From a bacterium (lineage in GTDB: Bacteria > Patescibacteriota > Minisyncoccia > UBA6257 > UBA9933): a stretch of 64,000 bases of DNA. The stretch lies in contig JAJYNK010000009.1 in the NCBI GenBank assembly GCA_021786355.1, forward strand, positions 517 through 64,516, given 5' to 3'. The position numbers were made by a program, and so were the translations under genes. Within the stretch, counting starts at the first letter, position 1. Every line of letters starts with the position of its first letter. Below are positions 10,030-55,366 of this stretch, one piece after another. Below the pieces are notes generated by a model. The model had not been told where the DNA came from. It made no database searches and saw nothing but the letters and a program-made list of their open reading frames with translations.

Positions 10030-12180
10030 TTATTGCATTAGGGCTTTTATCGAAAGTCCGATTTTTCCGTTTTCAACTTTTATAATTTTTGCTTTTACAA
10101 TATCGCCTAATTTAAGGACTTCGTTAATATCTTTTACGAATCCGCTTTTTACTTCTGAAATGTGGATCATTCCGTCGTTACCGCCGCCCAAATCGACAAT
10201 GGCGCCGAATTCCAAAAGCTTGATAATTTTACCCTCAATAATTTCTCCGACTTCAAATTCTTTTGTTAAGGACTGGATGTACTGAATCGCCGCTTGAGCT
10301 TGTTCTGGGGTAGTTGCGGAAACAAATACTTTTCCGGTTTGTTCGATGTCTATTGTCGTAACGCCGGTGTCTTTAATTATCATATTAATAATTTTGCCGC
10401 CCGGACCGATAACCTCGCCGATTCTTTCGGGATTTATATCAAGGGTTAAAATAATCGGCGCAAATTCGGATAATTTCTCGCGCGGTTTATCGATAACTTT
10501 TTTCATAACTTCCAGAATTTCCAGCCGGGCTTTTTTAGCTTGAGCCAGCACGTCTTTTAAAATATCCGCCGTAACTCCTTCAATTTTCACGTCCATTTGC
10601 ATGGCGGTAATTCCGTCTGTCGTACCCGCAACCTTACAATCCATATCTCCGTAGTGATCTTCCGGCCCTTGAATGTCGGTTAAAACCTTGTATTTCTGTT
10701 TGTCGTTTGTAGTTTGTGGTTTCTCTGTGATTATACCCATTGCAATGCCTGCCACCGGCTTTTTAATAGGAACGCCCGCGTCCATCAAAGACAATATCGA
10801 AGCGCAGACAGTTGCCATAGAAGACGACCCGTTCGAAGACAAAATTTCTGAAACAACGCGGATAGTATAAGGAAATTCCTCTTTTGAAGGGATTATTGAC
10901 CTTATGGCTTTTTCCGCCAAAGCGCCGTGGCCGATTTCTCTGCGGCCGGGAGCGCCCATTCTGCCTATTTCGCCGACCGAATAGGGGGGGAAATTGTAAT
11001 GGAGCATAAATCTGCGTTTCCCTGAAACCTCCATTGTTTCTATCATTTGTTCCTGTCCTGGAGCGGCTAAAGTTGTAACTGCCAACGATTGAGTACTGCC
11101 CCTAAAAAATAACGCTGAACCGTGAAGCCGCTTGAACAAACCGACTTGGCCAAAAAGCGTCCTGACTTCGTCGAGTTTTCGAGAGTCGGGCCTCAAATCT
11201 TTTTCCAAAACATTTTTATGGATAAGCGCGTCGATTTCTTCTTCAATAATAGAGTCTATTCCGTCAGGAATCAGCCCCTCGGAAACCAAATATTCTTTCA
11301 AATCTTCTTTTAGTTTTCGTAAATTGTCGTTCTGCTCGGCTTTGTCGGAAACATAAACCGCGGCTTCCAATTTGGTTTTTCCCGACGCTTCGGTCGGGAC
11401 TCCGACTGTTTCACGTCGGAGCAAAAATTCCTGAACTTTATGCTTCAGATTCGGGTCCGGCTCCGTCAAAAGCACCTCGGATTTTGGTTTGCCGATTTTG
11501 GAAATTATTTCTTTTTGGAATTTAATAAGTTTTTTTATTTCTTCCTGGGCTGTTTCAAACGAGCCGATGGCTTCTTTTTCGGAAACTTCGTTTGCCGCCA
11601 GCTCTATCATATTTATTTTACTTTCATTTCCGGCGACAAAGGATTCGAATAAAAATTCCCCGCCGTTAATTTCCGTCTTGGTCGGGTTAATCATTAAATT
11701 TCCGTCTTTCATTTTTGCCAACCTAACGCCCGCGACCGGCCCGTTCCACGGAATATCGGAAATTGCCAAAGCAACAGAAGCGGAAAGAAGGGAAATAAAA
11801 TCCGGATCGTTTTCTTCGTCGTAAGAAAGAATGGTGATAACAATTTGAACATCGCGCCTCATTCGCGAATTAAAAAAAGGCCTTAGCACTCTATCTATCA
11901 TCCGGCCGGAAAGAATGGCTTCTTCTGAAGGCCGGCCTTCGCGCCGGATAAAACGGCTGCCGATAATTTTACCGGCGGCGTAAAATTTTTCTTCGTAATC
12001 AACTACTAATGGAAAATAATCCGTGGCGCGGTCATTTTTCCCCATCGTGGCGGTTACCAAAACCACAGTGTCGCCATACTGGCCTAAAACAGCCGAGTTG
12101 GCTTGCTCGGCTATTTTTGAAACTTTTAGACTAAGGGGCTTACCCTGAAAATCAATTGAAAATTCTTTGAATTCAAGCAT
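10030..12180 (-). CDS. pnp: Polyribonucleotide nucleotidyltransferase (PNPase)
   Basis: 716 aa with two RNase PH domains, KH and a C-terminal S1 domain (GKIIKLLEFGAIVDLGGG). Confidence 0.95.
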   Translation of the reverse strand: MLEFKEFSIDFQGKPLSLKVSKIAEQANSAVLGQYGDTVVLVTATMGKNDRATDYFPLVVDYEEKFYAAGKIIGSRFIRREGRPSEEAILSGRMIDRVLRPFFNSRMRRDVQIVITILSYDEENDPDFISLLSASVALAISDIPWNGPVAGVRLAKMKDGNLMINPTKTEINGGEFLFESFVAGNESKINMIELAANEVSEKEAIGSFETAQEEIKKLIKFQKEIISKIGKPKSEVLLTEPDPNLKHKVQEFLLRRETVGVPTEASGKTKLEAAVYVSDKAEQNDNLRKLKEDLKEYLVSEGLIPDGIDSIIEEEIDALIHKNVLEKDLRPDSRKLDEVRTLFGQVGLFKRLHGSALFFRGSTQSLAVTTLAAPGQEQMIETMEVSGKRRFMLHYNFPPYSVGEIGRMGAPGRREIGHGALAEKAIRSIIPSKEEFPYTIRVVSEILSSNGSSSMATVCASILSLMDAGVPIKKPVAGIAMGIITEKPQTTNDKQKYKVLTDIQGPEDHYGDMDCKVAGTTDGITAMQMDVKIEGVTADILKDVLAQAKKARLEILEVMKKVIDKPREKLSEFAPIILTLDINPERIGEVIGPGGKIINMIIKDTGVTTIDIEQTGKVFVSATTPEQAQAAIQYIQSLTKEFEVGEIIEGKIIKLLEFGAIVDLGGGNDGMIHISEVKSGFVKDINEVLKLGDIVKAKIIKVENGKIGLSIKALMQ

Positions 12181-13223: not shown

Positions 13224-14186
13224 TTGTTCAGCAAATTAACTAATCAACTAATTAACCAGACTGCAACACGCATGGCTGATATAAATAAACTACTTAAAAA
13301 CTATCTCGACTATCTTGAGATAGAGAAAGGCAGAACCAAAGAAACGCGGGAGAATTACGAACATTACTTAAAAACGTTTTTTGAATTTGCCAGAATAAAA
13401 TCCGAAAGCGATATCAACGCTGACAACGTAAGAGATTTTAGAATCTATCTGGCGCGGCTCCATAATCTTCGAGATGGTGAAAATTTTAAGCGCACAACTC
13501 AAAGCTATTATATAATAGCGCTTAGAAACTTTTTGAAATTTTTGGCGAAAAACGACTATAAAGTTTTGGCTTCGGAAAAAATCGAGCTTCCCAGGATCCC
13601 AAAACAACAAATAGACATAATGGAATACTCGGATTTGGAGCGGCTTATGGCGGCGCCCAAAACAACCGATTTAAAAGGGCTGCGCGACAAGGCGATTTTG
13701 GAAGTTTTGTTTTCAACCGGACTTCGAGTGTCGGAATTGTGCGCTTTAAACCGATATTTTGACTTGAATAGGGGAGAAATTTCCGTACGCGGTAAAGGCG
13801 GGAAAATACGAGTGGTATTTTTAGCCGACTCCGCTAAAAAAGCCATTAAAAATTATCTGGATAAACGAACCGACGCCGAAGAAGCTTTATTTGTGAGCTT
13901 AACCAAAGCAAAAAATCCAAAAGTGCTTGGAAGAATTATTCCTCGCACAGTCCAACGCTTGATAGATTTTTATGGAAGAAAGGCAGGCATCTCACAAAAA
14001 ATCCATCCGCATTTAATCCGACACAGCTTTGCCACTGATTTATTAATAGGCGGAGCGGATTTAAGGTCAGTACAGGAACTTTTAGGCCACAGCAATATCT
14101 CCACAACCCAGATTTATACGCACTTGACCAATAAAGAGCTTAAAGAAATACATAAAACTTTTCACGGGAGACGCAGGAGCGAGTAG
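13224..14186 (+). CDS. Tyrosine site-specific recombinase, XerC/XerD-like (true start possibly MADINK at 13272)
   Basis: Catalytic signatures LIRHSFATDLL (HxxR) and LGHSNISTTQIYTHL (Tyr) plus an N-terminal SAM-like core-binding domain. Confidence 0.85.
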   Translation: MFSKLTNQLINQTATRMADINKLLKNYLDYLEIEKGRTKETRENYEHYLKTFFEFARIKSESDINADNVRDFRIYLARLHNLRDGENFKRTTQSYYIIALRNFLKFLAKNDYKVLASEKIELPRIPKQQIDIMEYSDLERLMAAPKTTDLKGLRDKAILEVLFSTGLRVSELCALNRYFDLNRGEISVRGKGGKIRVVFLADSAKKAIKNYLDKRTDAEEALFVSLTKAKNPKVLGRIIPRTVQRLIDFYGRKAGISQKIHPHLIRHSFATDLLIGGADLRSVQELLGHSNISTTQIYTHLTNKELKEIHKTFHGRRRSE

Positions 14187-14239: not shown

Positions 14240-14263
14240 CGTTGTATAGTATACTATACAACG
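14240..14263. repeat. Palindrome CGTTGTATAGTATACTATACAACG, one of five copies of the TATAGTATACTATA-core palindrome
   Basis: Other copies at 16889-16912, 32445-32466, 43175-43200 (inside a CDS) and 54896-54923. Confidence 0.85.
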
Positions 14264-14303: not shown

Positions 14304-14324
14304 TTTGTGTCCTCGGTGGGAGTC
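14304..14324. repeat. 21-bp direct repeat TTTGTGTCCTCGGTGGGAGTC duplicating the tRNA-Leu 3' end (att-like). Second copy at 14483-14503.
   Basis: Identical 21-mer at both positions. The second copy includes the last 17 nt of the tRNA. Confidence 0.8.
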
Positions 14325-14486
14325 CTCTTCCCCCGTAATTTTTCGTTCATAAATAAACATGAAAAATTACTCCTCCAGAGCCGGGGTTTTAAAAAAGCAA
14401 AGCAGTTTGCTTTTTTAAATACCCTTCTCCTCCCTTGTGATGTAAAAACTATAAATCCCTTTGAAATCAAAGGGATTTATAGTTTG

Positions 14487-14568
14487 TGTCCTCGGTGGGA
14501 GTCGAACCCACAACCCTTACGGGATAGCGTCCTAAGCGCTACGCGTATTCCATTTCCGCCACGAGGAC
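14487..14568 (-). tRNA. tRNA-Leu (anticodon UAG), long variable arm
   Basis: Reverse complement folds as acceptor GTCCTCG/CGAGGAC, anticodon stem TAGCG/CGCTA with loop CTTAGGA, variable arm TCCCGTAAGGGTT, T arm GTGGG-TTCGACT-CCCAC. Confidence 0.8.
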
Positions 14569-14629: not shown

Positions 14630-14708
14630 CCCCGTAGTGAATTTTGACTTTATTAATTTTATAAATTAATGTCGCCTTTGGCGACTACAGTCAAAATCTA
14701 CTATAGTG
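14630..14708. repeat. Hairpin repeat, family H copy 1 (CCCCGTAGTGAATTTTGACT ... AGTCAAAATCTACTATAGTG) with inner hairpin GTCGCC-TTT-GGCGAC
   Basis: Seen in the sequence. Belongs with copies at 14831, 40933, 43802 and 56613. Confidence 0.8.
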
Positions 14709-14830
14709 TTGACTTTTAAATAATTTTATTGTATTATATCTCAATATTTTGGATTAGACAATCCCACACATAAATACTGTGTATGGGACAAACTATCCCA
14801 AAATTTGCTCTTATAAATAGTTTACGTCAA

Positions 14831-14909
14831 CCCGGTAGTGAAGCTTCGGCCGAAATAAATTTTATCCTCCGACGTAACGTCGGAGGAAAGCCGAAGTTCT
14901 ACTACGGGG
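14831..14909. repeat. Hairpin repeat, family H copy 2 (CCCGGTAGTGAAGCTTCGGCC ... GCCGAAGTTCTACTACGGGG) with inner hairpin CCTCCGACG-TAA-CGTCGGAGG
   Basis: Seen in the sequence, immediately upstream of the higher-GC operon starting at 14953. Confidence 0.8.
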
Positions 14910-14952
14910 TCAATAATTCTGATATCTTAATCCTGAAAGGGGGACGACAACC

Positions 14953-15669
14953 ATGGCAGAAGAAAAGAAAGCTGATTTCAGCGCCGGAGAAGTTGGAAAA
15001 GAGCTCGGGATAACGGCAGGAGGTATTGCTGTTTTTGAACTCCTCAGAAAAGCCTGGGGGCTTATGAAGGTGGGGTCAAGAACCGCTGCCGCTGAAGTCA
15101 TTCGCGAAGTCGGGAGCAAGGCGGCCGCGGAAACGGCCAAAAAAGTGCAGGCGAAGATGAGCGATCATTACCGCGCCAAACTTCTTGTTTTTCTACAGAA
15201 GATGGAGTCTTCAACGGAACCGAGGCAGCAGAGCGCGGCAAAAACCATCAGAAAGAGGCAAGAGGACCGACAGTTTTGCCGGCCCCGGTCTTATTCTGAC
15301 GGCGGAAATTATCGACCCGGCGAAGAAAACCTTCTCGTGAATTGCCTCGGAAAAGTTCTAATACTCAAAGAACCTGAGAAAGAAGTAGCGGCAGAGGCGG
15401 CGGCGACAGAAAAAGAAACCATCAATTTCTTCGTCTGGCTCGGCGAACTCCCGCCTCAAGAATTCGACAGCGCGATTGAGTTTCTCAACCATGACATAGT
15501 TATGCAGTGGTTAAGAATGCTCGGCATTCGTTTCAACGAAATATTCGGTATCGTCGGTTCAGAACTACGTCCTTTCAACGATAAATGGGTTAAGTGGCTC
15601 AACAATCGCCGCACAGCACGCGGTCGGAGGACTGTAGAATATCAAAAGGAGGGCCCTCCTCATGCGTGA
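14953..15669 (+). CDS. Hypothetical protein (238 aa) in a higher-GC island
   Basis: GC visibly higher than the backbone. The stop overlaps the next start (ATGCGTGA), which suggests translational coupling. Confidence 0.5.
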   Translation: MAEEKKADFSAGEVGKELGITAGGIAVFELLRKAWGLMKVGSRTAAAEVIREVGSKAAAETAKKVQAKMSDHYRAKLLVFLQKMESSTEPRQQSAAKTIRKRQEDRQFCRPRSYSDGGNYRPGEENLLVNCLGKVLILKEPEKEVAAEAAATEKETINFFVWLGELPPQEFDSAIEFLNHDIVMQWLRMLGIRFNEIFGIVGSELRPFNDKWVKWLNNRRTARGRRTVEYQKEGPPHA

Positions 15670-16612
15670 AACTCTTAGTGAAATACTCCTAACGCTGCGG
15701 CTCATTCTCGACACAGTCATCACCGGCGCCGCGGACGCCGCCGAGGTCCTTGCCTTTGTCAGGGGCGAAAACAGAACCGATCTTGAAATATATCGGATCG
15801 GACTTTCACGGCTCGCGATTGCAGCGGCGCTTCTGCCTATACCAATCCTGCTTCTGGGAATTTTCGGATTCTCGATGTGGATTTCAATTGCGGGACTTAT
15901 TTGGGCGTTCTTCACGATCTTACTCTCTTTGCTGGCCGCGCCGATTGCGTTGATAATCGACGCGGTCTGGCACAGAACAACAGTAGGACTTGGAGAACGT
16001 TATGTTCGATTAACGCTACATGTTATTTTCGCCGAGTTATCGTTCGCAATAATGCTTATAGTCATTCCTATCGAGAAAAGACCTGAGTTGATCCCGTTGC
16101 TACTGCTCTTGGCCCTTATCATTTTTATTGGGACTCGTCTTTTTGGGGGCGCTTTCATCTTTAACGGAAGGGCAATAACGGTTGTTGCATCAATGATTTT
16201 CATCGCAATCGTCATTTCGTTGTTTCTCCCCCGCACAACGGCTCTCGCGAGAACCGCGGCGAGAGGAATCGATAATAATGTCGTTGCAGTATTTTCCTTA
16301 AATTCTCCTACGAAACCAACGGAAATAGGAACCAACCAGAAAATCCTCGTTGGGATGGAATTCCCGATCAAGCCAGGGGAGGATAATTATCTCTTCGCAA
16401 CTTCGGTCAAGGGAAAACGAACCGAGTACAAGTTGGAGGCCAACCAGCCCATCATCATTCGCTCAGCCCAACCCGACGGTTCTTTAAGGGATTTTCGACT
16501 GGGACCCGGAAGGTTTGGCTGGGAGGTTTTAAGAGATCAACAGGCTGGGCAGCTTCGGGTGCGAAGCGAACAGCCTGCGGTTCTCCGAATTATTGACGTG
16601 AACGAAAGTTGA
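15662..16612 (+). CDS. Polytopic membrane protein (about 6 TM helices) with a C-terminal soluble domain, in a higher-GC island
   Basis: Long hydrophobic stretches (LLLGIFGFSMWISIAGLIWAFFTILLSLLAAPIALII, LLLLLALIIFIGTRLFGGAFIF, VVASMIFIAIVISLF) followed by a 110-aa hydrophilic tail. Confidence 0.5.
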   Translation: MRETLSEILLTLRLILDTVITGAADAAEVLAFVRGENRTDLEIYRIGLSRLAIAAALLPIPILLLGIFGFSMWISIAGLIWAFFTILLSLLAAPIALIIDAVWHRTTVGLGERYVRLTLHVIFAELSFAIMLIVIPIEKRPELIPLLLLLALIIFIGTRLFGGAFIFNGRAITVVASMIFIAIVISLFLPRTTALARTAARGIDNNVVAVFSLNSPTKPTEIGTNQKILVGMEFPIKPGEDNYLFATSVKGKRTEYKLEANQPIIIRSAQPDGSLRDFRLGPGRFGWEVLRDQQAGQLRVRSEQPAVLRIIDVNES

Positions 16613-16618
16613 TCTTTG

Positions 16619-16738
16619 CCCCGTTAGAGAAAAGTCGCCGCGAGCGACTGAAGTCGTGCTCTTAGCACGGCGTTCTCTAATGGGGTTTGCCCCGTTAGAA
16701 GTAGGACGCGTACGATGCGTCCGCGACTTCTAACGGTG
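16619..16738. repeat. Two tandem hairpin repeats of family B: CCCCGTTAGAGA...TCTCTAATGGGG (16619-16685) and CCCCGTTAGAAGT...ACTTCTAACGGTG (16690-16738)
   Basis: Each arm pair is complementary apart from single G-T and C-T mismatches. The inner parts hold small hairpins. Confidence 0.75.
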
Positions 16739-16742
16739 TTTG

Positions 16743-16793
16743 CCCCACTTGTACTTCAGCGCAAGAGCGCTGAAGTACAAGTGGGATTTTTTT
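16743..16793 (+). terminator. Terminator in the same hairpin style: CCCCACTTGTACTTCAGCGC-AAGA-GCGCTGAAGTACAAGTGGG followed by T7
   Basis: A 19-20-bp perfect stem plus a T-run ending the island. Confidence 0.8.
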
Positions 16794-17029
16794 ATTTATT
16801 ACAGTTTCATACGAATTATAAATACACACGGATTGGTGCGTATAAAAAAATAAAATAGTTTGCAAAATTAATTCGGAAATAAATTTTTAGTGGTATAGTA
16901 TACTATACCACTTAACCGTTTTATATCGCATATAAAAATTATTTATTGTAAGAATATTGATTATAGGAAAAATAATAAAAAACACCCCAGTAAATCGGAG
17001 TGTTTTTTTAAATCACTAAATAAATAAAT

Positions 17030-17413
17030 TTATAAGTTTCCGGCAATTCCTCTTATTGCTGCGACTAGCCCTTTAGCAAGCAAGCCAACCGCGACAGATA
17101 CAAGAGCCCAGAGTATATGATTTCTTGCCGCTTTGGTTTTTGCTTCATCTCCGCCGGAAGTTAAAAACTGAAACGCTCCCCAAACAATAAAAACAACCGC
17201 CAAGGCAATTAATAATCCCAATAAATAATTAGCCACTGTATCTAGCGTATCGTACACATTAGAAAGGCCGGTTATGGGGATATTTCCGGGTTGTCCTTGG
17301 CCTGGCGGAGTAAATATCGCGGCAAACGAAAATACCGGCAACGCGAGCGATAAAATCGCTCCTGAATAAATAATACTTTGTAAAACTTTTTTCATTTTTT
17401 TGTATCGTATCAA
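17030..17413 (-). CDS. VirB2/TrbC-like pilin-family protein A (signal peptide, then two hydrophobic helices joined by TSGGD)
   Basis: YLLGLLIALAVVFIVWGAFQFLTSGGDEAKTKAARNHILWALVSVAVGLLAKGLV is the characteristic two-helix hairpin. Confidence 0.5.
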   Translation of the reverse strand: MIRYKKMKKVLQSIIYSGAILSLALPVFSFAAIFTPPGQGQPGNIPITGLSNVYDTLDTVANYLLGLLIALAVVFIVWGAFQFLTSGGDEAKTKAARNHILWALVSVAVGLLAKGLVAAIRGIAGNL

Positions 17414-17442
17414 TTCGACCTCGACCTTTTTCTTTATATTTA

Positions 17443-17853
17443 TTATAACGTTTGTATTATTCCGTACAACGCGCCGATGATTCCTCGCGCGAGTAAAATT
17501 ACTAATAATCCGATTGCGGCGTATAAAACTGTTTTTTGGCCTTCCTGGAATTTTTTAGGGTCGCCTGACGCGGTCATCATTTTCCAAGCGCCGTAGATAA
17601 CTATTATCACAGCCACAGAAACCGAAACGCCGATAAAATAATCGATTATTTTGGAAAGGACGCTATCAAGAGTCGAGCCGGATCCAAAATAATTAAAAAG
17701 CTGGCCGCTCCCGCCGCTAGCAGAAGGACTTGCTCCAGTTGGCTGACCGCCGCTTGTTGTCGGCTGACCTCCGCTTGTTTCGGCTAATTGATAAAAAGCA
17801 AACAAAGGCGCGACTTTAAGCCAATTCAAAATTTTTTTAATGTTTTTTCTCAT
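17443..17853 (-). CDS. VirB2/TrbC-like pilin-family protein B, with a low-complexity TSGGQPTTSGGQPT repeat
   Basis: DYFIGVSVSVAVIIVIYGAWKMMTASGDPKKFQEGQKTVLYAAIGLLVILLARGII has the same architecture as A and C. An imperfect 21-bp tandem repeat in the DNA encodes SGGQPT twice. Confidence 0.5.
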   Translation of the reverse strand: MRKNIKKILNWLKVAPLFAFYQLAETSGGQPTTSGGQPTGASPSASGGSGQLFNYFGSGSTLDSVLSKIIDYFIGVSVSVAVIIVIYGAWKMMTASGDPKKFQEGQKTVLYAAIGLLVILLARGIIGALYGIIQTL

Positions 17854-17994
17854 CCCAGTACTACAACTTCGATTATTTTTGTGTTAATTCTCGAGGTTGT
17901 GATTTATTGATTATTCTTATTTTTATTACCCAATATCAACTTAATTCAGGTTCTCAAAAATTTATAGAGAATGTATCGAAGTTGTAGTACTGGG
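17854..17994. repeat. 20-bp perfect inverted repeat CCCAGTACTACAACTTCGAT (17854-17873) / ATCGAAGTTGTAGTACTGGG (17975-17994) flanking a 101-bp AT-rich segment. The left arm abuts the ATG of pilin gene B.
   Basis: Arms verified base by base. The start codon of B (reverse complement of CAT 17851-17853) is immediately adjacent. Confidence 0.85.
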
Positions 17995-18026
17995 CATTTT
18001 TAAAATTATAAAAAATTTTTAACTGC

Positions 18027-18377
18027 TTAGCAAGGAAATTTATTCCATGGACCTAAACTGCCGCCGACAAGAACTTTCAAAACCAAATCAACTATGAACC
18101 CGGCTAAAAGAAGAATGGCTATGCCGATTAAGATAGTTCTTATTTTTCCAACCGCTTCTTTGTACTTTCCGGGATCTCCGGCAGAAGTCATTATTTTAAA
18201 CCCCGCCCAAACCAAAGCGCCGAGCGCCAAAACAAACGCGAAAACAATGACAAAATTATAAATATTTTGAGCTAACTGGAATAAATCGCAAATAGTACAT
18301 TCGAGCTTAGCCGTTCCCGGACCGCACTGAACTAAAGGGGTCAAAGCCGCATTGGCAATATTAACTAAATTAATCAT
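18027..18377 (-). CDS. VirB2/TrbC-like pilin-family protein C
   Basis: FVIVFAFVLALGALVWAGFKIMTSAGDPGKYKEAVGKIRTILIGIAILLLAGFIV. Confidence 0.5.
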   Translation of the reverse strand: MINLVNIANAALTPLVQCGPGTAKLECTICDLFQLAQNIYNFVIVFAFVLALGALVWAGFKIMTSAGDPGKYKEAVGKIRTILIGIAILLLAGFIVDLVLKVLVGGSLGPWNKFPC

Positions 18378-32374: not shown

Positions 32375-32497
32375 TGGGTTATTTTAGCATTTAAGATCGG
32401 CGCGCGAAAGCACTATTTTATAATTAATCAAAATTCTGCGCCGCGCACTATAGTATACTATAGTGCCATCAGCTAATCCAGGGTTGTCTTCGCTTAA

Positions 32498-35694: not shown

Positions 35695-37557
35695 TTATCT
35701 TACGATATCAACGGTTTGAAGAGAATCCGTTCCTGAGTTCACCGGAAGACCGGTAAATTCATCGGTCGCCGTAAGCTGAACAGCTGACAAAATCGGAAGT
35801 AGCGCGTTAGCCTGCGAAATACTGGGCGCTATTTCAACTTCAAACGTTGTTTCTATCGGTTTTCCTGTTACGCCTTTATTGGCTATTATCCGTCCGATAT
35901 TCCAAGAAACTTCTTGAGTTCGTTCATTATAGGTAGGCAGGCCGTCAGTGTCAATATTAGCGGCGACGGTCCCGGTCCACGAAGCGCCGGATTGCAAAAC
36001 CGCTTTGATTTTCGCGTCTTTTTTGTCGGTTGCGTAGTTTTTGATAATCCAATGGACAAGATACCGAGTGGGCTTATTAACTTGGGGCGGATAGGGCCCC
36101 TTTTTATTGTATTCGGCATAAGCGCTTATTTCGGTTCTTCCTCCGATTTTTGTTTCGGAACTGTTAACGCCTACTGTTTTGTCGCTGGAAATATAATAAG
36201 GAACGGTGGGCGAGGAAATTTCTCCTTCGGCTTTTAAAGAAAAATTTTTGTCGGATAATTTTTTTATCGGATAAATCGTTTTTGTTTTAAAAGAAAATGA
36301 AACCGTTCCTTTAGCGCCTTGGGAAAGATTTTTTAGCCCCGGTTCCTGCGAAGCATTCCAGATAACAGTATTGCTGTTCGAATCGAAAAACCCGTTACCC
36401 CGATAACTCGCAAAATCAAACATCGCGCCGGAAACTTTTACCTTTATAACCGCGTCCGCTAAACTATCTTCGGTGTTATTGCCATAGATGACGCTATAAT
36501 TTATCGTGTCTCCCGGAAAAGCCACGAAATTAGGATCGTTATTGGGGATGATGCTTAGAGAAAGAGGCGAGGAAGCAATGCCGAGATTGGCGGTTTTTTC
36601 ACCAAGAGGATATTCTTTGCCGTCTAATTCGATAAAAATTTTAGCCCTCACATCAAAAAACATACTATCCGGCCCAACAATGCTTCCTTTTATGGAAACG
36701 TTGTTTTCCATTCCGCCGGGCATTAAAGTTGTCCATATATTATTGCCGCTTGCGGGAGCCGGAGACGCTTCTTTGAATTTAAATGCAGCCGGATAAGCCA
36801 TTTCTAAACGGACTTTTGAAAAATTATAGTCGGAAAAATTTTTGTAGCTTGCGGTTATTTCAAATTGTTCGCCGGAAAAAACTTTTTGCGGAGCGCTCAA
36901 ATTAATGCCAACCGCCGGCTGGTCGGCAAAAATTTCAATGGTTTGTTTTTTTTCAAATTTAGTATTTAAATTCGGAGGTAAATACGAAAAGTAAACATCT
37001 ATTTTTTTTGCCGGATCGTTTGTGTCTAAAATCGCCAGCGAAAAAGATTTTTGATAAGAGTCGCCGCTTTCCAAAATTCCTATATTTTCTTCGATAACCT
37101 GCCTATCGCTATATTTGCCTAATCCGGCAACTCCTTCAGGAATCTGAATATCGATAAGCGAATCCCGCATTGCGCTTTTCGATTTGTTTTCTATGTTTAT
37201 TTTTACTTCAAACGGCTGGCCGGCTAAAACTTTACTTGGCGCTTTGGCTTCGAAAATAAAATCCTTGGTTTTTAAATATTGCGATAAATAATAACCGGCA
37301 AATGATCCGGCAATTATAAGCGTGGCAACAATCAGCCAAAAAATAACTTTTGAAAACTGGCTGACTTTTAAAAAAATCGATGAACTTGTCATTTGGCTTA
37401 TTTTATCGGAAACTCCGCTCCATTTCGGAATTGTTTGTTTTTCTTCCGGCGCTGAAATTTTTTTCTCTTCTTGCTTGGAAATTTTTGGAGTTTCTTTTTC
37501 CGATTCTTTTTTACTTCCCAAGCCGTATAAATTTTTTTCGAGATCTTCTAGACTCAT
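35695..37557 (-). CDS. Large N-terminally membrane-anchored hypothetical protein (620 aa), beta-rich repeat-like ectodomain
   Basis: A TM segment (VIFWLIVATLIIAGSFAGYYL) follows a Lys/Glu-rich N-terminus. No confident domain match. Overlaps recO and glyQS by 4 nt each, which suggests an operon. Confidence 0.45.
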   Translation of the reverse strand: MSLEDLEKNLYGLGSKKESEKETPKISKQEEKKISAPEEKQTIPKWSGVSDKISQMTSSSIFLKVSQFSKVIFWLIVATLIIAGSFAGYYLSQYLKTKDFIFEAKAPSKVLAGQPFEVKINIENKSKSAMRDSLIDIQIPEGVAGLGKYSDRQVIEENIGILESGDSYQKSFSLAILDTNDPAKKIDVYFSYLPPNLNTKFEKKQTIEIFADQPAVGINLSAPQKVFSGEQFEITASYKNFSDYNFSKVRLEMAYPAAFKFKEASPAPASGNNIWTTLMPGGMENNVSIKGSIVGPDSMFFDVRAKIFIELDGKEYPLGEKTANLGIASSPLSLSIIPNNDPNFVAFPGDTINYSVIYGNNTEDSLADAVIKVKVSGAMFDFASYRGNGFFDSNSNTVIWNASQEPGLKNLSQGAKGTVSFSFKTKTIYPIKKLSDKNFSLKAEGEISSPTVPYYISSDKTVGVNSSETKIGGRTEISAYAEYNKKGPYPPQVNKPTRYLVHWIIKNYATDKKDAKIKAVLQSGASWTGTVAANIDTDGLPTYNERTQEVSWNIGRIIANKGVTGKPIETTFEVEIAPSISQANALLPILSAVQLTATDEFTGLPVNSGTDSLQTVDIVR

Positions 37558-38283: not shown

Positions 38284-39495
38284 ATGAAGCTCAAGTTTGA
38301 CGAAGAGCGAGCGCTCGCGGTATTCCAAGCGCTCGAAAAACCGTACGTCGACGAAAGCGGAATTTACAAAACAGCTACTTTACCCCAAAACCGTTTCCAA
38401 CCAGAGGTGGGAGCACGCGAATACGCAAATTGGCTCTTCTTCCTGTCTCTGTTCGAAAGAGGCGGAATAGTAAGCGGCGACACTATGAAGTTCTTGTGGC
38501 AACTTCACCAGGATCTGCCTGAACTCTACGAGCCCCAAATTGTATCCACCAGCTGGACCCCGCAAAAGATTGAGGATGCATTTAAGACGGTCGCACCCAA
38601 AATCCTCAATGGCAACGGTACCGGTGAAGTCGGCGCAGGTTCCTTAAGCTACAAGCTCAGCGAACACACCGCCGCCTGGTACCGCAACGCGGTCACGCTC
38701 CACAAACACTGGGGTGGCGACATCCGCAATGTTTTCTGGGGCGTCACAGAATTCGAAGAGTCTTTCCGTAGGGTGGATTATCATAACAACCCGGCTGGCT
38801 TCAATGGCATGAGGCGTAAGATTTTTTCCCTATTGGTTATCTGGCTACAGGAAAAAAACTTCATCCCTCTTTTCCCTGGACCTATTCCGGTGGACTTCCA
38901 TGCTATGCGGGTCCTCTGGGAAACAGACATTCTTCGGCTTAACGGTTTCGCCAAACCATTCGAACCCAAGGAAGGAAAACACAGCCCGGCTCTCGCAGGC
39001 AAAATCTCAATGCGCGTCAGCGAGAAATTTATGGATACTATTGCAAAATGGTCCCAAAAATTTCTCCTGAAACACAAAATGAGTCATATGGTTATCAACC
39101 CGGCCCTGTGGCTGCTCTCTCGCGATCTTTGCGCGGAGCAGTTTCAAAACATCACCTTTGCCCAGAAAGCTGAAAATTCAATGGCGCCCGGCAATGAAAG
39201 CGCAGTGCCAAAAACCGGTTCTCGCATGCGTCATTTCCGCAAAGCAAAAGAGGCTATGCGCTTCACCGAGGCGGAAGATCTGCGCCAGAACCACGCTTTA
39301 TGGTCCGCCGGCTACAAGGATCCCTGCGGCCACTGTCCTATTGAAAAGTGGTGTTCGTGGTCCATACCGGCTGCCCCTTATTACACTTGGGGCATCATGG
39401 TTCGTTCCGGTCCCCGCGTTCCCTACCATTCTCCGCTGATTCCTGGAATGTTATGCCCTTCCAGCTATCAATCCCGTAAACGTTCACGCAAGTAG
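38284..39495 (+). CDS. Hypothetical 403-aa protein, clearly higher GC than the backbone
   Basis: GGAGGG RBS. No family recognised. Has a C-terminal Cys cluster (CGHCPIEKWC). Confidence 0.5.
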   Translation: MKLKFDEERALAVFQALEKPYVDESGIYKTATLPQNRFQPEVGAREYANWLFFLSLFERGGIVSGDTMKFLWQLHQDLPELYEPQIVSTSWTPQKIEDAFKTVAPKILNGNGTGEVGAGSLSYKLSEHTAAWYRNAVTLHKHWGGDIRNVFWGVTEFEESFRRVDYHNNPAGFNGMRRKIFSLLVIWLQEKNFIPLFPGPIPVDFHAMRVLWETDILRLNGFAKPFEPKEGKHSPALAGKISMRVSEKFMDTIAKWSQKFLLKHKMSHMVINPALWLLSRDLCAEQFQNITFAQKAENSMAPGNESAVPKTGSRMRHFRKAKEAMRFTEAEDLRQNHALWSAGYKDPCGHCPIEKWCSWSIPAAPYYTWGIMVRSGPRVPYHSPLIPGMLCPSSYQSRKRSRK

Positions 39496-39666: not shown

Positions 39667-39786
39667 TTTATTAACACCTTACGAACAAAATCTCTTGCTT
39701 TAAAACGCCGATTACTGATAATATGCCTTTAGAACACTGCTAATTTAAAATTCTGAGCTTATATAAAATTTGAGGAGGTGTTTGGG

Positions 39787-40803
39787 ATGAAGAAAATCGG
39801 TCCGATTCCATTAGAACAACTTGTCAAAGACGATGTTAACCGAGTAATCCAACATGCTTCAATAATTATTTCGCTCACGCCCGAAGGACCTATGATTTTC
39901 GCCAACCCGAAGCCGACGTTAAATGTACTGGCGGTTATTGGACCCGGAATAGGAACTCCTTTTAAACGCTTTTTTGAACGAGCCCTGCTTTTGGAAGTGG
40001 GCATTGGAGTTGGACGGCCTTACCACGAAGCAAAAAGTTCGATTGAAAAAACATCCAGCGGCAAGCCAAAAAGCATCCCAAAACGCCGTAAATGGTTTCG
40101 TCTTACCGAACAGCAATATATCCAGGTGGCTTCGTGGATTTTCCCCTGTTTGCAAGAAATCACCAACCAGAAAGTAGCGAATTGGAAATGCAATCATGAA
40201 AGTCCGTTTTTTATTCCGACTTCCCGCCACTACTTTTCTCGCCATCAAAAAACCCTTTTCATCGAAGAGGGGTACAAATCGTGGCCGCGGGGGACGCGCT
40301 TTGCCGTATCGCTTGAAGACCGCTTCTTGCTCTCCGATATTTACTGGGCGGAAAAACACAACCCCGACTTGCGCCGGCGCCTGAAAGGTCTCGCTAAATT
40401 TATAGATCTGCGGCTTAATTTCTCCGGCGCCAAAAAAACAAAAAGTCGTCCTCGCAAAGAATTCCGGGAGCTAAAACGTTTTGTACAAGTTGCCGGAATA
40501 CTTGAGAAACGCAACTTGCCGGTCCGGCACATTGTTGACCTCCTTGATTTTCTGCCGCTGAAAAATGGTCGCAGCCGCAGCCTGTATTACTACGAGATTT
40601 CTCACTTACTCGGCTATACCGGCGAAGAATTTAGGGAGGAAAAATTCGTCCATCAGGCATTGGCCAACCCGAGCCAACGACTCAACGGCATTAAGCTCCG
40701 AATCACTACTGGCCTCTCATGCCGGGACCATATTGTTTTTGAAATATCCACCAATCTCCCCGTGGGAGAAGAGATGCCTCTTCCCGCGCCTGTCCCCAAA
40801 TAG
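39787..40803 (+). CDS. Hypothetical protein (about 339 aa from ATG 39787; the ORF track starts at GTG 39778)
   Basis: GAGGAGG RBS 8 nt upstream of ATG 39787. Basic, moderately GC-rich. No family recognised. Confidence 0.5.
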   Translation: MKKIGPIPLEQLVKDDVNRVIQHASIIISLTPEGPMIFANPKPTLNVLAVIGPGIGTPFKRFFERALLLEVGIGVGRPYHEAKSSIEKTSSGKPKSIPKRRKWFRLTEQQYIQVASWIFPCLQEITNQKVANWKCNHESPFFIPTSRHYFSRHQKTLFIEEGYKSWPRGTRFAVSLEDRFLLSDIYWAEKHNPDLRRRLKGLAKFIDLRLNFSGAKKTKSRPRKEFRELKRFVQVAGILEKRNLPVRHIVDLLDFLPLKNGRSRSLYYYEISHLLGYTGEEFREEKFVHQALANPSQRLNGIKLRITTGLSCRDHIVFEISTNLPVGEEMPLPAPVPK

Positions 40804-43771: not shown

Positions 43772-45971
<2,200 letters not shown>

Positions 45972-55345: not shown

Positions 55346-55366
55346 AACGTCTCCTTTTAGTATGGG

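What the first reader, a model, noticed from the sequence alone, without database searches (positions are those of the whole stretch)
14783..16800. Higher-GC two-gene island (cytoplasmic protein plus 6-TM membrane protein) bracketed by hairpins, next to tRNA-Leu, a duplicated tRNA 3' end and a Xer-like recombinase
The genes at 14953-15669 and 15662-16612 have visibly higher GC than the 35-40 percent backbone. They are translationally coupled (ATGCGTGA overlap). Hairpin H2 precedes them and a triple-hairpin array including a strong terminator follows. Just upstream lie tRNA-Leu(UAG), a 21-bp exact duplicate of its 3' end (14304-14324 versus 14483-14503) and a tyrosine recombinase gene (13224-14186). 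This is the configuration expected for past site-specific integration events at this tRNA. The products have no recognisable family. A membrane protein with a soluble C-terminal domain plus a partner could be a transport, toxin-immunity or surface module.
Basis: partly seen in the sequence, partly recalled or inferred. Interest (0 to 1): 0.65.

Follow-up and report, generated by a model that had tools for sequence, protein, structure and literature searches.

The report
Variable membrane gene pair, not island
The higher-GC gene pair is real, but it is not a mobile island: it is a fast-evolving, mosaic operon for a cytoplasmic helical protein and a membrane protein with a swappable outer domain, and it has kept the same chromosomal slot next to a pilin gene array across distantly related ultra-small (CPR/Patescibacteria) bacteria.

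Summary
These are the two overlapping genes at GC 0.51/0.49 against a 0.40 backbone, the hairpins, tRNA-Leu(UAG), the exact 21-bp repeat and a tyrosine recombinase.

The island reading fails on four counts:
- The repeat brackets only 158 non-coding bp, on the far side of the tRNA from the genes.
- The recombinase is a XerC/D/A-type enzyme that sits in conserved synteny.
- The hairpins belong to a repeat family scattered across the genome.
- All six close relatives carry the pair in the same place. Homologues of B occupy the same slot (PNPase-NYN-S15-Xer-tRNA-Leu-[slot]-pilins-SBP-GyrA) in lineages with only 62-66% GyrA identity.

The locus is a recombination mosaic. Flanking proteins are 84-99% identical, but A is 29-85% and B 45-68%. 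Similarity breaks sharply at the boundary between B's membrane domain and its C-terminal domain. Within an allele type, dN/dS is 0.12-0.20.

GC3 is raised above the flanks in most lineages that carry the module. Neither protein matches any curated family.

My best reading is an envelope or surface module with an exchangeable exposed domain, working with the adjacent VirB2-like pilin array. That function is inferred, not shown.

The parts
13224..14186 (+). Xer-type tyrosine recombinase. The likely true start is the ATG at 13272. It is a conserved chromosomal neighbour, not part of the module.
   Evidence: Pfam Phage_integrase 1.2e-41 plus Phage_int_SAM_1. NCBIfam XerC 247 bits, XerD 237 bits, XerA_Arch 239 bits (cut-off 220), integron integrase 112 bits (cut-off 265). 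87-92% identical in L001-L003 and 58-64% in L021, L092 and L098, always next to S15.
14241..14262 (.). Copy of the genome-wide palindrome GTTGTATAGTATACTATACAAC.
   Evidence: The 16-nt core occurs four times exactly plus one near-copy in the window, against 0.06 expected. It is also present after Xer in L003.
14304..14503 (.). Insertion scar at the tRNA 3' end. Two exact 21-bp direct repeats (14304-14324 and 14483-14503; 18 nt of each are the tRNA-Leu 3' end) bracket a 158-bp structured non-coding element (14325-14482).
   Evidence: exact repeat. (same unit in L001, absent in L002). (95.9% nt identity between the window and L001 over 296 bp including the tRNA, against about 80-85% in the flanking genes). 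(three hairpins, z = -9.0). (weak RsaE-like hit on the + strand, 35.7 bits against a gathering score of 79).
14486..14568 (-). tRNA-Leu(UAG), a conserved landmark of the slot.
   Evidence: ARAGORN and Rfam tRNA 53.2 bits. Present at the same position in L001-L004, L006, L021, L026 and L092.
14630..14708 (.). REP/MITE-like hairpin of the CCCCGTAGTG...CTAC family, upstream of the promoter.
   Evidence: (I16). A related partial copy sits in L006 at the same relative place.
14709..14737 (+). Sigma-70-type promoter of the A-B operon: TTGACT, 17 nt, TATTAT, with TG one base upstream of the -10 hexamer.
   Evidence: Scan match of 10 out of 12. Conserved in all six loci of the clade.
14742..14817 (+). 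Conserved 5' leader: a stem-loop (UAUUUUGG...CCAAAAU) followed by the invariant box TTTGCTCTTATAAA (14804-14817).
   Evidence: Alignment A6. In L009 the stem is kept through changes on both sides (UUUCGGG...CCCGGAA). Fold of the leader gives z = -6.7.
14831..14909 (.). Hairpin H2, a REP/MITE-like element inserted into the 5' UTR. Found only in this genome.
   Evidence: -43.3 kcal/mol. Absent at the orthologous position in L002, L003, L006 and L009, with only a remnant in L001. Sister copies at 43802 and 56614.
14953..15669 (+). Gene A: a 238-aa all-helical protein, probably cytoplasmic or peripheral, with a Gly-rich amphipathic N-terminus and an Arg-rich C-terminal tail.
   Evidence: ORF. No curated family. 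AF2 model is all-helical, pLDDT 56. Only 5 homologues among 5.8 billion proteins. More distant homologues lie directly upstream of B-like genes in L095 (phmmer 1.9e-8) and L099 (hmmsearch 4e-12). dN/dS 0.12-0.13.
15662..16276 (+). Gene B, N-terminal part: an amphipathic helix plus a membrane domain of about 5 TM helices (aa 1-205), ending at the GIDN motif.
   Evidence: The profile search finds 145 cluster representatives that match this domain only. None of 130 members has a Pfam family for it. dN/dS 0.15-0.20.
16277..16612 (+). Gene B, C-terminal part: a Pro/Ser/Thr-rich linker plus a beta-rich domain of about 95 aa. This is the exchangeable segment.
   Evidence: Nucleotide similarity to L001, L002, L003 and L009 stops at 16275-16276. 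Only L006 matches 16331-16628, at 90%. Protein identity is 24-33% against 80%. The allele types are homologous at 31-41%. One family member carries a C-terminal dockerin.
16619..16741 (.). Two REP/MITE-like hairpins (16619-16685 and 16690-16741) after the B stop codon.
   Evidence: L006 has only the second. L001, L002, L003 and L009 have none.
16744..16795 (+). Intrinsic terminator of the A-B operon.
   Evidence: 19-bp stem with 11 GC pairs, then ATTTTTTTAT. Every relative has an equivalent CCCCGC...GCGGGG-T-run terminator.
16890..16911 (.). Second copy of the genome-wide palindrome (GTGGTATAGTATACTATACCAC).
   Evidence: The same position in L003, L006 and L009, with changed but still complementary arms in L009.
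17030..18377 (-). Array of three VirB2-like 'T4SS_pilin' genes converging on B. This is the conserved neighbour of the module.
   Evidence: PF18895 at 1.8e-11, 3.9e-10 and 3.4e-10. Adjacent to B-family genes in L001-L009, L092, L095, L098 and L099.

Best explanation
The region is a resident, vertically inherited chromosomal operon of a Wolfebacteria-like CPR bacterium. It is not an integrated element.

**Operon layout.** Its own strong promoter and a conserved structured leader drive two translationally coupled genes, and an intrinsic terminator ends the transcript. A is a helical protein that is cytoplasmic or peripherally membrane-bound. B is a membrane protein of about 5 TM helices. A Pro/Ser/Thr-rich linker carries a small beta-rich C-terminal domain, most likely on the outside of the cell.

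**How it evolves.** The pair belongs to two uncharacterised protein families that travel together. They have held the slot between tRNA-Leu and a VirB2-like pilin array since before the divergence of lineages with 62-66% GyrA identity. The locus diversifies mainly by homologous replacement of whole segments with deeply diverged alleles. The exchanged segments seen here are B's C-terminal domain, the middle of A, and the whole of A plus the B membrane domain. Each allele type is itself under purifying selection.

**Inferred function.** It is an envelope or cell-surface module whose exposed C-terminal domain sets a specificity that is under frequency-dependent pressure, such as host or partner recognition or phage evasion. 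It probably works with the neighbouring pilin-like proteins of the Patescibacteria T4SS-related apparatus.

**GC.** The raised GC3 is most simply a by-product of this locus's recombination and exchange history: GC-biased repair, import from a GC-richer allele pool, or both.

**Shown:** gene structure, synteny, mosaicism, selection regime, family breadth, and lack of annotation.

**Inferred:** topology, surface exposure, the link to the pilins, and the cause of the GC bias.
For: **Synteny**
- A-B lies at the same place in L001, L002, L003/4, L006 and L009.
- B-family genes lie in the same PNPase-NYN-S15-Xer-tRNA-Leu-[slot]-pilins-SBP-GyrA block in L092, L098 and L099, where GyrA is 62-66% identical to the window.
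- In L095 the flanking genes differ, but [A-like][B-like] still converges on 5 pilin genes.
- In L097 a B-like gene directly precedes a T4SS coupling-protein ATPase.

**A-B pairing**
- The A-family HMM or phmmer hits the gene directly upstream of B-like in L095 and L099.

**Mosaicism**
- Flanking proteins are 84-99% identical, against A at 29-85% and B at 45-68%.
- The B membrane part is 82-87% identical to L001/2/3/9 but 25% to L006. The C-terminal part is 24-33% to L001/2/3/9 but 80% to L006.
- blastn breakpoints fall at 16275-16276 in four independent comparisons.
- The middle of A (15126-15423) cannot be aligned with L003 or L009.

**Selection**
- dN/dS is 0.12-0.20, and dS is similar to the flanks wherever segments align.

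**Family breadth and lack of annotation**
- 145 representatives in 1.84 billion proteins match the membrane domain. Their C-termini vary, with total lengths of 130-792 aa, mostly 300-350.
- No Pfam family was found in 130 members.

**Surface exposure**
- The linker is rich in Pro/Ser/Thr.
- Five TM helices with a Lys/Arg-rich N-terminal side.
- One family member has a C-terminal dockerin, 1.2e-9.

**Expression signals**
-.

**GC**
- The slot genes exceed their flanks in GC3 in the window clade, L095, L098, L021 and L096 (B only).

**Background**
- VirB2-like pilin arrays and T4SS genes near dnaA are described for Patescibacteria in PMC12102498. dnaA and dnaN lie at 48.5-51 kb in this window.
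Against: - **Topology is ambiguous.** The segment just after the last TM helix is Lys/Arg-rich, averaging 3.5 K/R in 25 residues. Under the positive-inside rule that would favour a cytoplasmic C-terminus.
- **The pilin link rests on adjacency.** In most loci this adjacency is a single inherited synteny block, so the independent support is only L095 and L097. L096 has no pilin gene in the 9 kb examined beyond its B-like gene.
- **No VirB4/VirD4 gene was found** among the window ORFs scanned against Pfam.
- **The GC explanation is untested.** L092 shows the opposite sign: slot GC3 is 0.47-0.58 in a genome with GC3 of 0.8. This fits import from a shared pool better than biased conversion.
- **The slot does not always hold this module.** Some lineages at a similar distance carry an SPFH protein plus a small TM/beta protein instead (L021, L016), or nothing (L026/L029). 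The module is therefore neither universal nor obviously ancestral.
- **Ascertainment bias.** The close relatives were found through B itself. The anchor-gene scans added only two further close loci: L013 carries the B 3' end and L012 stops short of the slot.
Confidence: 0.5

Rival explanations
1. A-B is a horizontally acquired genomic island that entered by site-specific recombination at tRNA-Leu. The adjacent tyrosine recombinase catalysed it, the duplicated tRNA 3' end marks the att sites, and the hairpins mark the borders.
For: - GC and codon usage are atypical.
- An exact 21-bp duplicate of the tRNA 3' end exists.
- A tyrosine recombinase lies next door.
- The tRNA 3' flank is polymorphic for insertions among relatives.
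- An IS (rve) transposase is inserted just upstream of A in L006.
Against: - The repeats bracket 158 bp on the 3' side of the tRNA. A-B is on the 5' side.
- The recombinase is a Xer type in deep conserved synteny.
- A-B is present at the same site in all six close relatives, and B-like genes are in the same slot in distant lineages.
- The dS of the alignable parts equals that of the flanks.
- The hairpins are a dispersed repeat family and are absent from the same positions in relatives.
- No phage, plasmid or viral relatives were found.
Confidence: 0.04
2. B is an extremely diverged VirB6/PrgH-type polytopic component of the Patescibacteria T4SS-like machine, acting as a platform for assembling the neighbouring VirB2-like pilins. 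Its variable C-terminal extension would resemble that of 'extended VirB6' or F-type TraG proteins. A would be a cytoplasmic accessory.
For: - B is a polytopic protein of about 5 TM helices and 300-350 aa with a variable C-terminal extension.
- It is consistently adjacent to VirB2-like pilin arrays, including in the rearranged context of L095.
- One family member sits directly upstream of a T4SS coupling-protein ATPase.
- The literature notes that VirB6 is missed in some Patescibacteria classes, 'suggesting extreme sequence divergence' (PMC12102498).
Against: - None of 130 family members hits TrbL/VirB6 or any other T4SS Pfam family.
- hhalign of the B-family profile against pCF10 PrgH gives probability 0.2%.
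- No PDB sequence match to solved VirB6 chains was found.
- No VirB4 or VirB3 gene was found among the window ORFs scanned.
- The model is too poor for a fold test.
Confidence: 0.15
3. A-B is a functional counterpart of the SPFH (stomatin/flotillin) plus NfeD-type membrane-scaffold operon. In sister lineages that operon occupies the same slot.
For: - In L021 and L016, the position between tRNA-Leu/Xer and the pilins holds an overlapping pair: a Band_7/SPFH protein (2.4e-7 and 1.1e-8) followed by a small TM protein with a C-terminal beta domain. L014 has a similar-looking overlapping pair near its pilin genes, but its first gene was not scanned.
- In L096 an unannotated 322-aa protein lies next to, and divergent from, [A-like][B-like]. 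It looks SPFH-like by eye but has no Pfam hit.
- The architecture of B (TM helices plus a beta domain) resembles that of NfeD proteins (own knowledge).
Against: - A has no Band_7 hit and is predicted to be all-helical.
- No BLAST or HMM similarity links A to the SPFH proteins, or B to the small partners.
- No NfeD Pfam hit appears in B or in the small partners.
Confidence: 0.1
4. B is a polymorphic toxin or contact-dependent effector. Its C-terminal domain is a swappable toxin. A or another protein provides immunity or export.
For: - A conserved N-terminal part is followed by a sharply delimited, recombining C-terminal domain after a short conserved motif (GIDN).
- Deep allele lineages do not follow the backbone phylogeny.
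Against: - No immunity-sized ORF follows the variable domain. What follows is hairpins, a terminator and the convergent pilin gene.
- No toxin, PADLOC or secretion-domain hit was found.
- The C-terminal alleles are all one homologous small beta domain, not unrelated toxins.
- A is upstream of B and varies independently of the C-terminal domain.
- No silent cassettes were found.
Confidence: 0.05

Closest known systems
tRNA-targeted genomic islands and their decayed remnants (att-flanked, integrase-less 'CIME'-type elements)
   Same: The 179-bp unit downstream of tRNA-Leu matches the pattern. It is an exact 21-bp duplicate of the tRNA 3' end flanking a short insert. The insert is present in the window and L001, and the site is empty in L002. 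Other inserts and a tRNA fragment sit at the same site in L003 and L006.
   Different: The insert is only 158 bp, non-coding and structured, and about 95% conserved between genomes whose synonymous sites have diverged by 0.5-0.9. A and B lie outside it, on the other side of the tRNA. The neighbouring recombinase is a housekeeping-type Xer, not an island integrase.
VirB2-like pilin arrays and the MPF-FATA-like T4SS of Patescibacteria (Microb Genom 2025, PMC12102498)
   Same: The three PF18895 genes at 17030-18377 are such an array. The region lies about 30 kb from dnaA/dnaN, as that paper reports for T4SS genes.
   Different: As far as I read the paper, it does not describe the A and B families. 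The component profiles it lists are existing T4SS and pilin HMMs, and none of the Pfam T4SS families matches B.
VirB6 / PrgH and 'extended VirB6' or F-type TraG proteins
   Same: They share a polytopic inner-membrane domain of similar size with a variable hydrophilic C-terminal extension, encoded beside pilin genes. In F-like and SXT systems, a variable region of TraG sets partner specificity (own knowledge).
   Different: No sequence or profile similarity was found. No adjacent VirB3 or VirB4 was found in this window.
SPFH (Band 7) plus NfeD operons
   Same: Both are two overlapping genes, the second being a membrane protein with a small C-terminal beta domain. A true SPFH pair occupies the same slot in L021 and L016.
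   Different: A is not an SPFH protein, and B has no NfeD signature.
Loci with recombining C-terminal specificity domains (CdiA-CT/Rhs toxins, phage tail-fibre tips, variable surface antigens)
   Same: Both have a sharp recombination boundary at a domain junction after a conserved motif, and deep allele lineages that do not follow the species tree.
   Different: There is no immunity gene, no toxin domain and no silent cassette store nearby. The alleles are one homologous fold under purifying selection.
REP / MITE-like intergenic palindromic repeats
   Same: Hairpins H2, 14630, 16619 and 16690 share termini (CCC[C/G]GT[T]AG...CTA[A]C[G/C]GGG) with copies at 38161, 40934, 41029, 43565, 43802 and 56614. 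They also show presence/absence differences between relatives.
   Different: The family itself is not in Rfam. Whether it is mobile, and by what enzyme, is unknown.

Membership tests
tRNA-integrated genomic island | The element is flanked by direct repeats derived from the tRNA 3' end. | tested here: not met
   The repeats at 14304-14324 and 14483-14503 flank 158 bp on the 3' side of the tRNA. A-B (14953-16612) lies on the 5' side.
tRNA-integrated genomic island | An island-borne integrase that is absent from the empty site. | tested here: not met
   The recombinase is XerC/D/A type. It is present next to S15 in all relatives, including L002, which lacks the repeat unit.
tRNA-integrated genomic island | Presence/absence polymorphism among close relatives. 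| tested here: not met
   A-B is present in all six close loci. The SBP-anchored scans added two more close loci: L013 carries the B 3' end and L012 ends before the slot. Caveat: few relatives exist in the databases.
tRNA-integrated genomic island | Atypical base composition and codon usage. | tested here: met
   GC is +2.0 to +2.4 sd, GC3 +1.9 sd, and codon fit -2.3 and -4.0 sd. However, the same offset is kept in all relatives.
VirB6 / TrbL / PrgH (T4SS polytopic component) | A match to the family profile. | tested here: not met
   No TrbL/VirB6 hit in B (E up to 1) or in 130 family members. hhalign against pCF10 PrgH gives probability 0.2%.
VirB6 / TrbL / PrgH (T4SS polytopic component) | A polytopic membrane protein with at least 5 TM helices. 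| tested here: met
   Hydropathy analysis and AF2 helices.
VirB6 / TrbL / PrgH (T4SS polytopic component) | Encoded together with VirB4/VirB3 and other T4SS genes. | tested here: inconclusive
   B lies next to VirB2-like pilins here and in nine other distinct loci. It lies next to a T4CP in L097. No VirB4 or VirB3 was found among the window ORFs scanned.
SPFH + NfeD operon | The first gene carries an SPFH/Band 7 domain. | tested here: not met
   A has no Band_7 hit and an all-helical model. It shows no similarity to the SPFH proteins of L021, L016 or L014.
SPFH + NfeD operon | The second gene carries an NfeD C-terminal OB-fold domain. | tested here: inconclusive
   No NfeD Pfam hit. The fold cannot be judged because pLDDT is below 55 over the domain. 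Foldseek returns only weak generic beta-barrel or jelly-roll matches.
Polymorphic toxin / CDI-type system | A variable C-terminal domain delimited from a conserved N-terminal part. | tested here: met
   Breakpoint at 16275-16276, after the GIDN motif.
Polymorphic toxin / CDI-type system | A cognate immunity gene immediately downstream. | tested here: not met
   Only hairpins, a terminator and the convergent pilin gene follow.
Polymorphic toxin / CDI-type system | A recognisable toxin or trafficking domain. | tested here: not met
   Pfam, PADLOC and NCBIfam are all empty.
Integron (considered because of the hairpins plus a tyrosine recombinase) | An IntI-type integrase. | tested here: not met
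   TIGR02249 scores 111.8 bits against a cut-off of 265, and PRK15417 scores 77.5 against 435.
Integron (considered because of the hairpins plus a tyrosine recombinase) | attC sites with RYYYAAC...GTTRRRY core order. | tested here: not met
   By inspection, the hairpins read 5'-GTTAGA...TCTAAC-3', the reverse order. No dedicated attC model was run.
RsaE/RoxS sRNA (for the 158-bp element) | Reaches the Rfam gathering score. | tested here: not met
   35.7 bits against a gathering score of 79, E = 0.0026. Only the general architecture is similar: C-rich single-stranded stretches between hairpins plus a terminator.

The most novel reading that the evidence does not exclude
The A and B families are a previously unrecognised, widely conserved pair in Paceibacteria-like CPR bacteria that forms part of the VirB2-like pilin/T4SS-related host-interaction apparatus. 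B would be its membrane platform and display a recombining, strain-specific extracellular domain that sets host, partner or phage specificity. If so, this would be a missing and rapidly diversifying specificity component of the epibiont-host interface. It would also explain why standard T4SS profiles fail to find a VirB6-like partner for these pilin arrays.
Probability: 0.25. Interest if true: 0.7.

Novelty: new variant of a known kind. Interest (0 to 1): 0.42.

Why it matters
**Practical lesson.** In small CPR genomes, a GC-rich patch beside a tRNA, a repeat and a recombinase need not be a mobile island. Comparing synteny across relatives overturns that reading here.

**Biological point.** CPR bacteria live attached to host cells, and their surface and T4SS-like genes are the few known handles on that lifestyle. 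This locus adds several things:
- Two unannotated protein families that are kept together and kept beside the pilin arrays.
- An outward-facing domain that is exchanged between lineages as a unit.
- A GC3 excess that persists across lineages.

**What it makes testable.**
- Which envelope proteins carry strain-level specificity in these organisms.
- Whether recombination hot spots shape base composition in reduced genomes.

**Limits.** No function is demonstrated. The finding is a lead, not a mechanism.

Tried and rejected
**Family and structure searches that led nowhere**
- Curated families for A and B returned nothing useful: Pfam, PHROGs, PADLOC and NCBIfam. The same was true for A-family members and for 130 B-family members.
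- PDB sequence searches with the A and B family profiles had a best E-value of 0.42.
- AlphaFold2 models were too poor to use: B at pLDDT 46.5 and A at 56.4.
- Foldseek/PDB on the B model gave only weak generic beta-barrel hits (E >= 7e-3).
- The afdb50 library was unavailable.

**Database searches with limited yield**
- The viral scan with that alignment failed for lack of a conserved stretch.
- Single-protein scans of the viral, phage and plasmid collections found no relatives.
- The genome-contig scan with the SBP anchor returned only the two contigs already known.

**Hypotheses considered and rejected**
- Integron-like cassette reading of the hairpins: the integrase scores and core-site order are wrong.
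- The palindromes at 14244 and 16893 as island borders or recombination sites: the motif also occurs at 32448, 43180 and 54902 and in relatives.
- A as a diverged SPFH protein, or B's partner-like relatives as homologues: no similarity.
- The L092 189-aa upstream protein as an A homologue: hhalign probability 0.15%.
- Silent C-terminal cassettes for gene conversion: none in the window or in the available flanks.
- 'Slot genes sit at GC of about 0.5 whatever the host': abandoned after L098 and L096 gave 0.59-0.63.

Full report
**1. Observation**

The window reads as the core chromosome of a Candidate Phyla Radiation (Patescibacteria) bacterium.
- Around the finding lie PNPase (10030-12180, minus strand), a NYN-domain gene, S15 and a tyrosine recombinase (13224-14186, plus strand).
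- Next come tRNA-Leu(UAG) (14486-14568, minus strand) and the two genes in question.
- Beyond them lie three convergent PF18895 'T4SS_pilin' genes, a solute-binding protein (SBP) and GyrA.
- dnaA and dnaN are at 48.5-51 kb.
- The closest named relative is a Candidatus Wolfebacteria MAG.

Gene A (14953-15669) and gene B (15662-16612) overlap by ATGCGTGA.
- Their GC is 0.508 and 0.492, and their GC3 is 0.515 and 0.517.
- The other 55 ORFs of the window average GC 0.40 (sd 0.045) and GC3 0.40 (sd 0.06).
- Their codon usage is the worst fit to the window, at -2.3 and -4.0 sd.

The other described features are also real.
- The 21-bp repeat is exact and unique.
- The hairpins fold far better than shuffled controls: z = -12.3 for 16613-16797 and z = -6.7 for the leader.

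**2. Why it is not an island**

(a) Geometry.
- The tRNA is on the minus strand, so its 3' end is at 14486.
- The second repeat copy lies further downstream, at 14304-14324.
- The repeats therefore enclose only 14325-14482, which is 158 bp. A and B lie on the opposite, 5' side of the tRNA.

(b) The recombinase.
- It scores as XerC, XerD and XerA: 247, 237 and 239 bits, with XerA_Arch above its cut-off.
- It scores far below the integron-integrase cut-offs.
- It keeps its place next to S15 in L001-L003, L021, L092 and L098.

(c) Synteny among close relatives.
- Every close relative carries A-B between tRNA-Leu (or what replaced it) and the pilin array. These are L001, L002, L003/L004, L006/L007 and L009, retrieved through B homologues.
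- Two further close loci came from an SBP-anchored metagenome scan. L013 contains the B 3' end, and L012 ends before the slot.

(d) Deep conservation.
- An exhaustive profile search found that B's membrane domain defines a family of 145 cluster representatives (E < 1e-3) among 1.84 billion proteins.
- L092, L098 and L099 show the same block: PNPase-NYN-S15-(Xer)-(tRNA-Leu)-[small genes]-B-like, converging on (PMT)-pilins-SBP-GyrA.
- Those genomes share only 62-66% GyrA identity with the window.
- An A-family gene lies directly upstream of the B-like gene in L095 and L099.

(e) Hairpins.
- H2, 14630, 16619 and 16690 share termini with copies at 38161, 40934, 41029, 43565, 43802 and 56614.
- They are missing from the orthologous positions of most relatives.
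- They are therefore REP/MITE-like insertions, not borders of an element.

(f) No relatives of A or B were found in the viral, phage or plasmid collections.

**3. What the tRNA flank does show**
- The 179-bp unit (repeat plus 158 bp) is present in the window and in L001. The 296 bp that include the tRNA are 95.9% identical between them.
- It is absent in L002, where the tRNA abuts the Xer stop codon.
- L003, L004 and L006 instead carry a 131-aa Cys-rich ORF.
- L003 also has a fragment of a second tRNA-Leu and a tRNA-Leu of different sequence.
- The 158-bp element folds into three hairpins separated by C-rich single-stranded stretches (z = -9.0).
- It gives a sub-threshold RsaE-like hit on the plus strand.
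- Its last hairpin also serves as the terminator for the tRNA, and it carries a compensatory change in L001.

**4. What the locus is**

The A-B transcription unit has these parts.
- A consensus-like promoter, TTGACT-17-TATTAT at 14709-14737, conserved in all six loci.
- A conserved 5' stem-loop. L009 keeps the stem through changes on both strands.
- An invariant box, TTTGCTCTTATAAA.
- A GGAGG-type ribosome-binding site, then A and B.
- A strong terminator at 16744-16785.

The proteins look like this.
- A is predicted to be all-helical. It has a Gly-rich amphipathic N-terminus and an Arg-rich tail.
- B begins with an amphipathic helix followed by about five TM helices. These carry the family-wide conserved residues Y44, P94, Y114, P136 and P190.
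- B then has a Pro/Ser/Thr-rich linker and a beta-rich domain of about 95 aa.

**5. Mosaic evolution**

Identity to the window:

| Component | Range across relatives |
|---|---|
| Flanking proteins | 84-99% |
| A | 29-85% |
| B | 45-68% |
| B membrane part (aa 1-205) vs L001, L002, L003, L009 | 82-87% |
| B membrane part vs L006 | 25% |
| B C-terminal part vs L001, L002, L003, L009 | 24-33% |
| B C-terminal part vs L006 | 80% |

Nucleotide-level breakpoints:
- Similarity to L001, L002, L003 and L009 ends at 16275-16276, just after the GIDN motif. It resumes only beyond the terminator.
- L006 matches only 16331-16628 and 16686-16752, at 90-94%.
- L003 and L009 also lose similarity in the middle of A (15126-15423).

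Selection and allele structure:
- Where segments align, dS equals that of the flanks (0.4-0.7) and dN/dS is 0.12-0.20. Housekeeping neighbours give 0.01-0.10.
- The C-terminal allele types are homologous but deep, at 31-41% identity with E-values of 1e-9 to 1e-12. No silent copies lie nearby.
- These are functional genes whose diversity comes from replacing whole segments with old alleles. That pattern is typical of loci under frequency-dependent selection.

**6. Composition**

GC3 of the slot genes against their flanks:

| Locus | Slot genes | Flanks |
|---|---|---|
| Close relatives (L001, L002, L003, L006, L009) | 0.49-0.61 | 0.28-0.48, mostly about 0.40 |
| L095 | 0.59-0.64 | about 0.45-0.53 |
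| L098 | 0.71-0.78 | about 0.55-0.60 |
| L021 (SPFH pair) | 0.59-0.60 | about 0.41-0.47 |
| L096, B only | 0.83 | 0.63-0.89 |
| L099 | 0.65-0.70 | 0.57-0.79 (about equal) |
| L092 | 0.47-0.58 | about 0.8 (slot lower) |

- The GC excess is therefore not a fading trace of a recent import.
- It could be maintained by GC-biased repair at a recombination-prone locus. That bias is known from bacterial population genomics (own knowledge, not tested here).
- It could also come from repeated import from a differently composed allele pool. L092 favours this second reading.
- The other GC-rich ORFs of the window are also family-less ORFans: 38284, 39778, 41181, 54947, 55367 and 55813.

**7. Function (inferred)**

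Evidence for an exposed C-terminal domain:
- Five TM helices with a Lys/Arg-rich N-terminal side.
- The composition of the linker.
- A family member that ends in a dockerin domain, 1.2e-9.
- Against this, the juxtamembrane segment after the last TM helix is Lys/Arg-rich.

Evidence for a link with the VirB2-like pilins:
- The adjacency holds throughout the conserved block.
- It also holds in the rearranged context of L095.
- In L097 a B-like gene precedes a T4SS coupling protein.
- Patescibacteria are reported to carry arrays of 2-11 variable VirB2-like pilin genes and an MPF-FATA-like T4SS, often near dnaA. VirB6 is hard to detect in some classes (PMC12102498).

Limits on that link:
- B shows no detectable similarity to VirB6, TrbL or PrgH, so membership is not claimed.
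- In sister lineages the slot holds an SPFH protein plus a small TM/beta protein (L021, L016). L014 has a similar-looking pair near its pilin genes, and L026/L029 hold nothing.
- This keeps a membrane-scaffold reading alive, and it shows that the slot's content can itself be replaced.

**8. Verdict**
- The island interpretation is refuted for the two genes. It is supported only for a small scar on the other side of the tRNA.
- What remains is a moderately interesting lead: a conserved, unannotated, mosaic envelope gene pair beside the CPR pilin array, with a persistent GC3 excess and no demonstrated function.

Noticed in passing
window 14244-14259, 16893-16908, 43180-43195, 54902-54917 (exact); 32448-32463 (2 mismatches); also L003 ~1390, L006 ~3857, L009 ~2947: The 16-nt palindrome GTATAGTATACTATAC, usually extended to 20-22 nt, recurs in regions that look intergenic. 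About 0.06 copies are expected by chance. In L009 the arms differ but stay complementary (CACTATAGTGTACTATAGTG). It reads as TGnTATAGT on both strands, so it could be a bidirectional extended -10 element or a binding site for a dimeric protein. It is not a border of the A-B region.
   Followed up: partly
window 14630, 14831, 16619, 16690, 38161, 40934, 41029, 43565, 43802, 56614 (start positions): A dispersed family of long hairpins (49-159 nt) has conserved termini CCC[C/G]GT[T]AGTGAA...TTCTACTAC[G/C]GGG. Several end within a few bases of a start codon (41181, 56757) or sit in 5' UTRs. The family is abundant in this genome and in L006, and nearly absent in L001 and L002. It looks like a REP/MITE-like element, and Rfam has no family for it.
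   Followed up: partly
window 14325-14482 (between the tRNA 3'-end repeats); L001 8871-9029: This 158-bp non-coding element has three hairpins and C-rich single-stranded stretches (CUCUUCCCCC, CUCCUCC, CCCUUCUCCUCCC). It is about 95% identical between two genomes whose synonymous sites differ by 0.5-0.9, with a compensatory change in the terminator stem. It gives a weak RsaE/RoxS-like Rfam hit on the plus strand (35.7 bits, below gathering). It could be a small anti-Shine-Dalgarno RNA or a mobilisable att-flanked mini-element.
   Followed up: partly
window 14742-14817; the same region in L001, L002, L003, L006, L009 (alignment A6): The 5' leader of the A-B operon is conserved. It has a stem-loop with a variable inner insertion, and L009 keeps the stem through changes on both sides. 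An invariant box, TTTGCTCTTATAAA, follows. It may be a cis-regulatory or mRNA-stabilising element. It has no Rfam match.
   Followed up: partly
window 38284-39495, 39778-40803, 41181-41696, 54947-55360, 55367-55816, 55813-56376: Other ORFs have raised GC (0.44-0.51) and no Pfam family. Some are preceded by the same hairpin repeats. Two have signal-peptide-like N-termini. In this genome, raised GC seems to mark lineage-specific genes of unknown function in general.
   Followed up: partly
L021 8647-10163; L016 13369-15023; L014 4491-5833; L020 2686-3174: In more distant relatives, the slot between tRNA-Leu/Xer and the pilin array holds an overlapping pair: an SPFH/Band 7 protein followed by a small TM protein with a C-terminal beta domain. 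This is an NfeD-like architecture without an NfeD Pfam hit. L014 and L020 show similar-looking genes near their pilins but were not scanned. In L026/L029 the slot is empty, with the tRNA-Leu 110 bp after the last pilin gene.
   Followed up: partly
L003 1528-1923 and ~2005-2060; L004; L006 124-519, 595-676, 777-1724: These loci have different content on the 3' side of the tRNA. There is a 131-aa Cys-rich ORF (GC 0.46). L003 also has a fragment of a second tRNA-Leu and a tRNA-Leu(tag) of different sequence. In L006 an rve-family IS transposase is inserted just upstream of the A-B promoter.
   Followed up: partly
L092 8882-9280; L095 7657-8337; L098 6790-7383; L099 6718-7275: In distant lineages a third gene precedes the A-like gene. 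It is a beta-rich protein of 130-226 aa with weak Big_1/MG3 (Ig-like) hits and no signal peptide visible by eye. It is absent from the window's clade.
   Followed up: partly
window 17443-17853 (second pilin gene), repeat at 17738-17779: The middle pilin gene evolves faster than its neighbours (dN/dS 0.14-0.30 against 0.03-0.15). It contains a 21-bp tandem duplication that encodes a repeated TSGGQPT motif.
   Followed up: no
window 42027-42695 (minus strand) and tRNA-Asp 41967-42041: A free-standing LAGLIDADG-type ORF (PF14528, 2.7e-12) ends inside or abuts tRNA-Asp. This may be a homing-endonuclease remnant. In L096 the orthologous Xer gene carries an intein with a LAGLIDADG domain.
   Followed up: no
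window 35695-37557 (minus strand): A 620-aa ORF at typical GC has no Pfam hit at E <= 1e-4. It was not examined further.
   Followed up: no
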